A DNA stretch of 64,000 bases, taken from Mytilus edulis (taxonomy: Eukaryota). Location of the stretch: positions 19,282,001 through 19,346,000 of the forward strand of contig NC_092347.1 in assembly GCF_963676685.1 (NCBI RefSeq), given 5' to 3'. The position numbers were made by a program. Every line of letters starts with the position of its first letter. Positions within the stretch are counted from its first letter, which is position 1. Of this stretch, positions 51,001 through 54,000 are shown one piece after another.

Positions 51001-54000
51001 TGTCTGTAATAGATATCAACCTTATCAATAGATATCTGTAATAGATATCAACCTTATCAATAGATATCTGTAATAGATATCAACGTTATACTTTCCTAAT
51101 CATCGATACTATGTTTTATCATTGTCAATAAACTGATAATTGTATTTTTCATTCTAGGCTTAATTTGAGTATGTTTGTTTTTCAGTTTTAAGTCAATACC
51201 TTAACGAAGAACTAGTAGTCACTGATTTTGTCAAATGTGAAGGAAAAGACGTTTTTCATTGTGACGATACACAAGCAGAGTGTATATCTAAAGATAAAAT
51301 ATGTAATGGTGTAAATGAATGTAGTACAGGGCGAGACGAAAGTGTGGAGGAATGTGGTAAGTGTAAAGGGCGAGACGAAAGTGTGAAGGAATGTGGTAAG
51401 TATAAAGGGCGAGACGAAAGTGTGGAGGAATGTGGTTAGTGTAAACAATATGGAAGTACAATCACAAAAATACTGAACTCCGAGGAAAATTCAAAACGGA
51501 TATTCCCTAATCAAATGGCAAAATCAATAGCTCAAACACATGACACACATGAAACGAATGGATAATGACTGTCATATTCCTGACTTGGTACAGGCATTTT
51601 CTTATGTAGAAAATGGTGGATAAAACCTGGTTTTATAGCTAGCTAAACCTCTCACTTGTATGACAGTAGCATCAAAAACAAAGTTACATCAATAATATGA
51701 TAGTATGTCCAATGAACAGAACCATTATATTGATTGACAACAATCAATGTATTAACAAAACAAACAAACATGTAATCTTTTTACAGCAAATATGTTATGA
51801 GTATTTAGTTACTAGTTTACCACATTATTTGACAGTCAGCAATCAATGTTAGATTTTATTACCATATATGCAAAAGCGTCATCTGAAAATAGGCGTTAGG
51901 TAGGATTAAAGTCAACTGGTATATCATTTATTAAAAATGAGAGCAGAATTGAGATCAGAACAGAACATTGAGGAAATCGTAGGAAACTAATTGAGTACGA
52001 CATGATGAAAAGCCATATCCATGCATTTATTTTGCACTGTATCCCACTGTGATTAAGTATTTGACATGAAATAATGATTCTATAGATAAAGTCAAGTATG
52101 ATTAAAATCGAGCGTTTGAAGTTTTGAGATGAATTATTCTAAGAATATTTAAATTTCTAATAGAAAAGTATCCATTGCCTTTTCATAATGGTGCATATAA
52201 TTCATCTTTTCAAAATGTAAGTTTGATAAGATGTTCGAAATGCTAGACAGGTTAAAAGGATTTTTAGATATGATTTGAAGTTCATTGATATTCTTTTACA
52301 ATTTATTGTTATTGAAACAAGTGTGGACACAGATGAGTGTGGATAGTATGTTTGACAGTGTTTTATGATAAATGTAGTTCTATGATTTTCCTATATGTGT
52401 TACTAACTGTGTTGCACGATGACAACCAACCGGAGCATTAGGAGTATTGTTTATTTATATTTAGTTTAGTTTTTATGTTCAAGACAGGCATGGAAGAGAC
52501 ACTAATTGCATTAGTTACCAAATGATTATGATAGAATATGTTCCACATCTTTGATTTTGGATACAATTTATAGCTAGGAGAGCAACACATAATAGGTTCA
52601 ATTTTTCGTGATTTTTTTTAAATTGGGAGATGATATCTGAGAACATGATATAAGGAGCATGTAATTCAGTGGTTGTCGTTTGTTTATGCGTTACATATTC
52701 GTTTTTTCTTTATTTTTTGTACATAAATAAGCCTGTTATTTTTCTCCTTTGAATTGTTTCACATTGTCATTTTGAGACCTTTTATAGCCGACTATGGTGC
52801 ATTAGCTTTGCTCATTGTTGAAGGTTGTGTGGCGACCGGTAATTGTTAATTTCTATGTCATTTTGGTCTGTTGTGGAGAATTGTCTCATTGGCAATCATA
52901 TCACATCTTTTTTTATATGTATTTGCTAACTATTTGTATGGTTCTATTTATATATACTGAGCGCAAATGAAAACGCAACACTTGGTTTTTCAAAAATAAA
53001 ATTTATATTAGAAATTATGATCTTTCAAAATGAATTGTTCTTGAAAATTAACAATTCTAACAATAGATCGATATCAAACAAAAATGTTTCATTGTCATCT
53101 TTCGGGCGCAATAGATAAACGAAACATCCAATGTCGAATCATCAAATCACAGTCCTAACAAAAAATGTTACAACCCTGTTGTGCAGTGCAATCTCGACAG
53201 CGCCGTGGAATTGATCATCCCGGACGTTTAATGTGATCTCGAGGAATGTTATTCCACTTGTCCCGCAAAGCAAACTCAAGCTGACTTTTTGATATTGGTG
53301 GTGGTTTTCATCGTCTAAACCATGTCATTATTGAAACTAATAAAGTTAACATCTTAGTTTTGATATAATTGAAAGTTGTATTAACAGTTTTTAAACCGGA
53401 TTTTTCTTCCCTTTTTATTACTTGTAAGATTAACAAATTATTCTTTGTACAGAAAAAGCACTGGATTTGATTTCTTTATTATCATTAATTGTTCACAGCC
53501 ACTGTAAGATGAAATTCTATAAGTAGATTTGCAAATAATACAGTATCACAATTTACGTAATGATGCTATTCAACAAATAGGTAGTGTTATAGGATTGACA
53601 GTATTTATTCGATACATCTTGAATTGAAACTAAACAAACATGCCAAATGTTATTTTATATTGAAAGCAAAAGTTACTTGCAGATACTTGATTTCTTGCCC
53701 AGAACAAATTCTCGAGTGAAAAAGATAATTGTTATTTTTTATGCCAGCTATTCCAAAGCTAAGATTGTTTGACTATCAGTATGCAATTTCTTTTTATTAT
53801 GATATCATATATATAATTACAAATGAAAAAGGAGTAATTTCTGATATCCAAAATATAAACATTGAAAATATTAAATTCAAATAAAAAAGGACGTGCTCCA
53901 ATCATTATGTAAGCTGTGATTGTCTCGAAAAGAACTAGTTTTGCAGTAATTCGACTAAATCATAAACGTTTAGTTTTCGTAGATTTTGTCAAAACTCTCC

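What the first reader, a model, noticed from the sequence alone, without database searches (positions are those of the whole stretch)
51328..51444. In-frame triplication of exon end plus splice donor creates three alternative donors
Seen: the 39-bp (13-codon) unit duplicates the donor, giving G|GTAAGT 51357, G|GTAAGT 51396 and G|GTTAGT 51435, all phase 1 with no stop between them. Using donor 2 or 3 appends GKCKGRDESVKEC and then GKYKGRDESVEEC, repeating the acidic end of the LDLa module and adding 2 or 3 cysteines; read-through hits TAG right after, giving a short secreted single-module form. Inference: a VNTR that directly generates receptor isoforms. Units differ at several positions, arguing against a simple assembly artefact.
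Basis: partly seen in the sequence, partly recalled or inferred. Interest (0 to 1): 0.72.

Follow-up and report, generated by a model that had tools for sequence, protein, structure and literature searches.

The report
Splice-donor minisatellite in mussel receptor gene
A 39-base piece covering the end of an exon and its splice signal is repeated three times in a mussel receptor gene; repeats of this kind are already known from human genes such as F7, and this one may or may not add 13 amino acids to the protein.

Summary
A 39-bp unit (13 codons) stands 3.1 times head to tail at 51324-51445. It places three phase-1 donors at 51357, 51396 and 51435, with a TAG at 51437-51439.

The gene is the start of a Mytilus GRL101-type (type C2 LGR) receptor: a signal-peptide exon and three LDLa exons, 95-100% identical to an M. 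trossulus model.

Orthologue proteins, and unspliced read-through ORFs from two relatives, carry a single copy of the unit. The triplication is therefore derived in this lineage.

Donor 2 is as complementary to U1 as the gene's genuine donors. Donor 3 has decayed to GTTAGT.

The structure belongs to a known class: minisatellites whose first unit spans an exon-intron boundary. Human examples are F7, IFI6, CBS, LMNB2 and PDGF (PMC1557585). In 3 of those 5 genes only the first donor is used.

Whether isoforms are made here, and whether copy number varies between individuals, could not be tested. My best reading is a young, probably neutral repeat in which donor 1 is the main site and donor 2 may leak. 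It is a new member of a known kind, of modest interest.

The parts
8385..8427 (+). Coding exon 1: start codon and signal-peptide-like N-terminus; donor GT at 8428, phase 1.
   Evidence: tblastn of P0001 residues 1-14 gives 14 of 14 identical. Boundary read.
51186..51356 (+). Coding exon 2 (171 nt when donor 1 is used): first LDLa module.
   Evidence: Pfam Ldl_recept_a 27.3 bits against a cut-off of 24.1. 55 of 57 residues identical to P0001. AG acceptor at 51184-51185.
51324..51445 (+). 39-bp minisatellite of 3.1 units spanning the exon 2/intron 2 boundary.
51324..51362 (+). Unit 1: last 33 nt of exon 2 plus GTAAGT. Donor 1 (GT at 51357) gives the conserved junction.
   Evidence: P0001 and P0002 read ...ESVEECGCLKDIEF... 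across this junction.
51363..51401 (+). Unit 2, with donor 2 (GT at 51396). Carries one private substitution, 51386 G>A (Glu to Lys in the read-through frame).
   Evidence: Nine Watson-Crick pairs to the U1 5' end, the same 11-mer as the exon-3 donor.
51402..51440 (+). Unit 3, with weakened donor 3 (GT at 51435, GTTAGT). Private substitutions are 51402 G>A (Cys to Tyr) and 51437 A>T.
   Evidence: Seven Watson-Crick pairs and duplex energy -7.1 against -11.0 kcal/mol.
51437..51439 (+). In-frame TAG that ends the read-through frame. It is created by the same A>T change that weakens donor 3.
51441..51445 (+). Partial fourth unit (5 nt). This is the original intron sequence whose 4-of-5 match to 51324-51328 marks the duplication boundary.
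62082..62192 (+). Coding exon 3: second LDLa module, and the shared acceptor for all three donors.
   Evidence: Pfam 37.8 bits; tblastn; sequence read.
63577..63693 (+). Coding exon 4: third LDLa module. The gene continues beyond the window.
   Evidence: Pfam 42.2 bits. tblastn 97.4% over 39 residues. Boundaries.

Best explanation
This is a young, lineage-specific 39-bp minisatellite. It arose by tandem duplication across the exon 2/intron 2 boundary of a Mytilus GRL101-type (type C2 LGR) receptor gene; the breakpoints share a 4-of-5 match, which suggests microhomology-guided slippage or unequal exchange. Because the unit holds the last 33 exon bases plus the donor and is 13 codons long, the donor is reiterated in phase. 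I think donor 1, the most upstream site, remains the main site and gives the conserved protein, in which LDLa1 abuts LDLa2 through a single Gly. Donor 2 is intact and may be used at a lower level, inserting 13 residues with 2 Cys. Donor 3 has decayed. The extra units evolve as intron, without coding constraint. Shown: the repeat, the gene, the exon boundaries, the single-copy state in relatives, and the relative complementarity of the donors to U1. Inferred: the mechanism of origin, donor usage, and neutrality.
For: The repeat is shown. The gene model is supported at every junction by the orthologue. P0001 (NCBI, M. trossulus model) and P0002 both read straight from LDLa1 to LDLa2 with no extension; P0002 is 1118 aa on a 3744-nt contig and so must be intronless, i.e. 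transcript-like. The unspliced read-through ORFs P0003 (95% identical) and P0004 (69%) show one unit followed by intron. P0003's tail matches the window's flank just downstream of the array in another frame (my reading), so the flank is orthologous. All 3 post-duplication substitutions are non-synonymous or nonsense in the read-through frame, with 0 of 3 synonymous, and one removes a Cys. Donor 3 is weaker than all four genuine donors of the gene. The window is rich in minisatellites: 14 arrays cover 7.6% of it, so such a duplication needs no special cause. Precedent: in human F7, where a 37-bp unit spans the exon 7/IVS7 boundary, only the most upstream of the identical donors is used. Of the 5 such human genes listed in that paper's introduction, 3 use only the authentic donor (PMC1557585).
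Against: There are no transcript data from this species, so donor usage is inference only. Donor 2's 11-mer equals the genuine exon-3 donor, with 9 Watson-Crick pairs against 8 for donor 1. [quoted passage not shown] At 39 nt this predicts substantial use of donor 2. In 2 of the 5 human minisatellite genes (IFI6/6-16 and CBS) the next two pseudo-sites are used. The orthologue proteins come from genomes that seem to have one unit, so they say nothing about donor choice in this allele. The substitution test has no power: P(0 of 3 synonymous) is 0.535 under neutrality. All the splicing precedent is mammalian.
Confidence: 0.55

Rival explanations
1. Donor 2, the intron-proximal strong site, is the main donor in this allele. 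The receptor made from it would normally carry a 13-residue, 2-Cys insertion between LDLa1 and LDLa2.
For: Donor 2 has 9 Watson-Crick pairs to the U1 5' end and is the same 11-mer as the genuine exon-3 donor. Strong duplicated 5' splice sites show an intron-proximal preference that rises beyond 30 nt separation (PMC3413131). The insertion is in frame with no stop, so the product would escape nonsense-mediated decay. No RNA structure hides any donor: z = +0.91.
Against: In F7, with 37-bp spacing, the upstream-most of the identical sites is used exclusively, even when downstream sites are improved to a consensus value of 91. In P0001 the link between LDLa1 and LDLa2 is a single residue, and the next two links are about 4 residues (read by eye), so a 13-residue Cys-bearing insert would be atypical. 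No database protein representative carries the extension.
Confidence: 0.2
2. One reading: a copy-number-variable repeat in which all three donors are used, producing functionally distinct receptor isoforms plus a short secreted read-through form.
For: In-frame unit and open frame. IFI6 and CBS show that up to three reiterated donors can be used. Copy number differs between lineages.
Against: Donor 3 has a mismatch at +3 and -7.1 kcal/mol, weaker than every genuine donor here. Unit 3 lost a Cys, which would leave an odd number of cysteines, and gained a stop. There is no sign of coding constraint, no transcript or polymorphism data, and the junction is conserved in orthologues.
Confidence: 0.1
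3. Assembly artefact: the genome really has one unit.
For: No reads could be examined. No protein representative in the 5.8-billion-cluster set carries the repeated peptide.
Against: The units differ by 3 substitutions with no indels, which is not what collapse or stutter errors produce. The flanks are colinear with the orthologue. 13 other arrays lie in the same window. The absence from the protein sets is uninformative, because the window's read-through ORF has no ATG, GTG or TTG before the repeat (my reading), and isoforms would be hidden inside a 90% cluster that I could not open.
Confidence: 0.08

Closest known systems
Human F7 intron 7 37-bp VNTR (Borensztajn et al. 2006, PMC1557585; abstract, Introduction, Results subsection 9 and Discussion read)
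   Same: The first unit of the minisatellite spans the exon-intron boundary, so the authentic donor is followed by copies of itself at almost the same spacing (37 against 39 bp). No RNA structure explains the choice of donor.
   Different: F7 has 5-9 units that are strictly identical and is a proven polymorphism. Its unit holds only 4 exon bases and is not a multiple of 3. Its donors are weak (TGG/gtgggt, consensus value 74). Here there are 3.1 units, each holding 33 exon bases, in frame, with strong GTAAGT donors and units that have already diverged. Usage is known for F7 (first donor only) and unknown here.
Human IFI6 (6-16) intron 2 and CBS intron 13 minisatellites (as described in the Introduction of PMC1557585; the original papers were not seen)
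   Same: Reiterated donors at an exon-intron boundary.
   Different: Those arrays have many more units (25 pseudo-sites; 15-20 repeats). Usage has been shown experimentally there and not here.
Human LMNB2 (100-bp) and PDGF (81-bp) boundary minisatellites
   Same: The same architecture.
   Different: Longer units; only the authentic donor is used.
Duplicated strong 5' splice sites in model pre-mRNAs (Hodson et al. 2012, PMC3413131, passages)
   Same: Two identical strong donors compete for one acceptor.
   Different: Those are artificial constructs in mammalian extracts or cells. The intron-proximal site wins at separations of 45 nt or more, the opposite of F7.
GRL101 of Lymnaea stagnalis and type C2 LGRs (PMC11863921, passages)
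   Same: The host gene's orthologue has LDLa modules, LRRs and a rhodopsin-type 7TM domain, and NCBI names it GRL101-like.
   Different: Only the signal exon and three LDLa exons lie in the window. The receptor type is an orphan, so the effect of an insert after LDLa1 cannot be predicted.
Introns and alternative splicing born from tandem arrays (Zhuo et al. 2007 PNAS; seen only as a citation, paper not held) and internal tandem repeats that remodel human genes (PMC2812944, passages)
   Same: Tandem repeats that carry splice signals change gene structure.
   Different: Those cases concern new introns or exon accretion within repeats, not reiteration of an existing donor.

Membership tests
Minisatellite whose first unit spans an exon-intron boundary (F7 / IFI6 / CBS / LMNB2 / PDGF type) | Head-to-tail repeats of a unit of tens of bases | tested here: met
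   Period 39, 3.1 copies, 92% matches, no indels; 3 matches against 0 in 100 shuffles.
Minisatellite whose first unit spans an exon-intron boundary (F7 / IFI6 / CBS / LMNB2 / PDGF type) | The first unit contains a genuine exon-intron junction | tested here: met
   The junction after 51356 reproduces the orthologue's protein across exons 2 and 3.
Minisatellite whose first unit spans an exon-intron boundary (F7 / IFI6 / CBS / LMNB2 / PDGF type) | The donor sequence is reiterated in the following units | tested here: met
   Donor 2 keeps GTG|GTAAGT. Donor 3 keeps GT but has T at +3.
Minisatellite whose first unit spans an exon-intron boundary (F7 / IFI6 / CBS / LMNB2 / PDGF type) | Copy number varies between individuals (VNTR in the strict sense) | not testable with these tools
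   Only a between-lineage difference was seen: one unit in P0003 and P0004. No reads or population data were available.
Alternative 5' splice sites that yield isoforms | Transcripts spliced from more than one donor | not testable with these tools
   No RNA data. No protein representative carries the extension. Cluster members could not be listed.
Subtle tandem donors (GYNGYN type; recalled) | Donors 3 nt apart | tested here: not met
   The spacing is 39 nt.
LDL-receptor class A module (Pfam PF00057) | Score above Pfam's gathering cut-off | tested here: met
   Exon 2 scores 27.3, exon 3 37.8 and exon 4 42.2 bits against a cut-off of 24.1. Six Cys are present in exon 2.
GRL101-type (type C2) leucine-rich-repeat GPCR | Several N-terminal LDLa modules | tested here: met
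   Three LDLa exons lie in the window. Orthologue P0001 has 8 Pfam LDLa stretches.
GRL101-type (type C2) leucine-rich-repeat GPCR | LRR ectodomain and rhodopsin-type 7TM domain | tested here: inconclusive
   Both are present in orthologue P0001: LRR_8 114 bits and 7tm_1 95.7 bits. That part of the gene lies beyond the window's end.
GRL101-type (type C2) leucine-rich-repeat GPCR | Orthology to a named member | tested here: met
   The four exons are 95-100% identical to 'GRL101-like isoform X1 [Mytilus trossulus]' and are colinear with it. The name is NCBI's automatic one.

The most novel reading that the evidence does not exclude
The in-frame minisatellite is a polymorphic length-and-cysteine switch just behind the first LDLa module of an orphan GRL101-type receptor. 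Alleles with 1, 2 or 3 units, and the choice among reiterated donors, would give receptors with 0, 13 or 26 extra residues. These could differ in folding of the LDLa stack or in signalling, as relaxin-receptor signalling depends on its LDLa module (title of Scott et al. 2006, seen as a reference; the rest is recalled). It would also be a natural, NMD-free reporter for how a lophotrochozoan spliceosome chooses among identical donors.
Probability: 0.08. Interest if true: 0.55.

Novelty: new member of a known kind. Interest (0 to 1): 0.3.

Why it matters
If the extra donors are used, a single slippage event has altered the ectodomain of a neuropeptide-type receptor without breaking the frame. That would be a clean example of repeat-driven protein accretion. 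Because the unit is in frame, every donor choice gives a stable mRNA, so the locus could test two conflicting rules outside mammals: 'most upstream site wins' (F7) and 'intron-proximal site wins' (model substrates). If only donor 1 is used, it is an ordinary intronic minisatellite in a repeat-rich bivalve genome, relevant mainly as a trap for gene predictors.

Tried and rejected
- **Cluster members.** Listing the 29 members of P0001's 90% cluster, to look for isoforms with the 13-residue insert, was not possible because the database was switched off. This stays unchecked.
- **Protein searches.** I searched with the contiguous read-through at 'longer', 'near' and 'shorter' lengths. They gave 2 hits of 418 candidates, 2 of 61 and 0 of 1, and none carried the extension. 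This is weak evidence: isoforms would hide inside clusters, and the window's ORF lacks a start codon.
- **RNA structure.** A structure that could mask a donor is rejected. The minimum free energy is -18.3 kcal/mol, z = +0.91, and 163 of 200 shuffles fold at least as well.
- **Coding constraint on units 2-3.** There are only 3 substitutions, so there is no power.
- **Mobile element or other gene as the source of the repeat.** Nothing was found. The unit occurs nowhere else in the window. There were 0 Rfam matches, and 0 of 16 long ORFs had a Pfam match.
- **Structure prediction of the read-through peptide.** Considered and not run. With only four shallow relatives, the insert would be low-confidence by construction.
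- **Joined models.** The donor-2 and donor-3 junction peptides were therefore never searched.
- **Collections not available or not useful.** The bacterial, phage, plasmid and E. coli collections were not used because they cannot hold a mussel locus. Paper supplements were not consulted.
- **Literature on mussels.** A search for 'tandem repeat' + 'splice donor' + 'Mytilus' found 0 papers. 'GRL101' + 'Mytilus' found 3, none about this locus judging by title and abstract.

Full report
**What the window is.** The window is 64,000 bases with no N, 31% G+C and CpG observed/expected 0.83. I do not take it for human. Its coding pieces are 95-100% identical to a Mytilus trossulus protein, so it comes from a mussel of that genus. 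All searches used single exons or the contiguous read-through of exon 2.

**The observation.** Tandem Repeats Finder reports one array at 51324-51445: period 39, 3.1 copies, 92% matches, no indels, score 216. The repeat finder gives three 43-nt copies at 51325, 51364 and 51403. A 34-nt core of the unit occurs 3 times at up to 3 mismatches, while 0 of 100 shuffles gave any match.
- GT dinucleotides at 51357, 51396 and 51435 are all in phase 1.
- The frame is open through the units and stops at TAG 51437-51439.

**The gene.** The read-through translation of exon 2 finds 'G-protein coupled receptor GRL101-like isoform X1 [Mytilus trossulus]' (P0001, 1120 aa). It also finds an unnamed 1118-aa protein, P0002. 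These were 2 hits among 418 candidates. P0001 has 8 Pfam LDLa stretches, LRRs and a rhodopsin-type 7TM domain. That is the architecture of type C2 LGRs, the orphan GRL101 group (PMC11863921, passages).

tblastn places four coding exons on the + strand:

| Exon | Coordinates | Content | Identity to P0001 |
|---|---|---|---|
| 1 | 8385-8427 | start codon, signal-like N-terminus | 14 of 14 |
| 2 | 51186-51356 | LDLa 1 | 55 of 57 (BLASTP) |
| 3 | 62082-62192 | LDLa 2 | 95% over 40 aligned residues, the last 3 running into the intron |
| 4 | 63577-63693 | LDLa 3 | 38 of 39 |

All four are phase 1. The introns are 42,758, 10,725 and 1,384 nt long. Each LDLa exon passes Pfam's cut-off, at 27.3, 37.8 and 42.2 bits against 24.1. 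The rest of the gene lies beyond the window.

**The repeat is derived.** P0001 and P0002 read directly from the end of LDLa1 through one Gly into LDLa2, which is the donor-1-type junction. P0002 sits on a 3744-nt contig. That is too short for the introns, so it is transcript-like.

Two short unnamed proteins are unspliced read-throughs of the same exon in relatives (2 hits of 61 candidates; sequences).
- P0003 (95% identical) has one unit and then intron. Its last residues match the window just downstream of the array in another frame (my reading), so the flanks are orthologous.
- P0004 (69% identical) also has one unit.

The triplication is therefore specific to the window's lineage or haplotype. 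The unit boundary shows a 4-of-5 match between 51324-51328 and 51441-51445. This fits slippage or unequal exchange at a short imperfect microhomology, which is an inference.

Three substitutions are each private to one unit:
- 51386 G>A, Glu to Lys;
- 51402 G>A, Cys to Tyr, which also gives donor 2 an A at +7;
- 51437 A>T, which puts T at +3 of donor 3 and creates the TAG.

None is synonymous, but under neutrality that has probability 0.535, so the test has no power.

| Donor | Watson-Crick pairs | Duplex energy (kcal/mol) |
|---|---|---|
| Donor 1 (51357) | 8 | -11.0 |
| Donor 2 (51396) | 9 | -11.0 |
| Donor 3 (51435) | 7, internal mismatch | -7.1 |
| Genuine exon 1 donor | 9 | -9.3 |
| Genuine exon 3 donor | 9 | -11.0 |
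| Genuine exon 4 donor | 8 | -10.7 |

Donor 2's 11-mer is identical to the exon-3 donor, so it is competent by sequence. Donor 3 is the weakest of all six. The pre-mRNA around the array has no notable structure (z = +0.91).

**What is known.** The architecture is described in the literature. Borensztajn et al. 2006 (PMC1557585; abstract, Introduction, Results subsection 9 and Discussion read) studied the human F7 intron-7 37-bp VNTR, whose first unit spans the exon 7/IVS7 boundary. Only the most upstream of the identical donors is used, even when downstream copies are improved to a consensus value of 91. Only perfect-consensus copies compete.

Their Introduction lists four more genes of this type.
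- LMNB2 and PDGF use only the authentic donor.

So 3 of the 5 genes use the first donor alone. Against this, Hodson et al. 2012 (PMC3413131, passages) report that two strong 5' splice sites are spliced almost wholly at the intron-proximal site. That preference rises beyond about 30 nt separation and reaches about 100% at 45 nt or more. At 39 nt the two bodies of work make different predictions, and all of it is mammalian.

**Verdict.** I read this as a young, probably neutral boundary minisatellite in a repeat-rich genome; 14 arrays cover 7.6% of the window. Donor 1 is most likely still the main site, donor 2 is a plausible minor or co-used site, and donor 3 is decaying. The claims of a VNTR and of isoform production are untested.

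**What stayed unchecked.**
- No database protein representative carries the extension. This is weak evidence, because isoforms would be merged into P0001's 29-member cluster, which I could not open.
- Raw reads, transcripts of this species and population copy number were not available.
- Literature searches found no report of this locus. 'GRL101' with 'Mytilus' gave 3 papers, none on it judging by title and abstract. 'tandem repeat', 'splice donor' and 'Mytilus' gave 0 papers.

This is a new member of a known kind, of modest interest.

Noticed in passing
window 50914-51089: A second minisatellite (36-bp unit, 5.1 copies, 93% matches) lies in intron 1 and ends 96 nt upstream of the exon 2 acceptor. 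Exon 2 is therefore flanked by tandem arrays on both sides.
   Followed up: no
window 51392-51405 and 62189-62202: The 14 nt around donor 2 are identical to the 14 nt around the genuine exon-3 donor. The identity exists only because of the 51402 G>A substitution. It is probably coincidence.
   Followed up: partly
window 8428-51185 (intron 1): This 42.8-kb first intron separates the signal-peptide exon from LDLa1. It contains large arrays: a 25-bp unit x 46 at 19290-20444 and a 499-bp unit x 3 at 21884-23369. A 365-bp x 2.3 array lies upstream of the gene at 2250-3074. None of the 16 long ORFs tested, which lie across the whole window, matched Pfam, and there were no Rfam matches.
   Followed up: partly
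window 51296-51356: LDLa1 scores only just above Pfam's cut-off (27.3 against 24.1 bits). Its acidic calcium-cage positions look partly replaced when compared with the usual LDLa motif, which I recall rather than tested. The same residues are kept in P0001, P0002 and P0004, so this is a conserved peculiarity of the first module.
   Followed up: no
window 51441-51480 versus P0003: The relative's read-through ORF implies about 20 more intron bases between the donor and the shared downstream flank than the window has. An indel therefore lies immediately next to the array.
   Followed up: no
window 63576-63578: The residue encoded across the exon 3/4 junction is Ala in the window, Val in P0001 and Glu in P0002. 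This is a variable linker position between LDLa2 and LDLa3.
   Followed up: no
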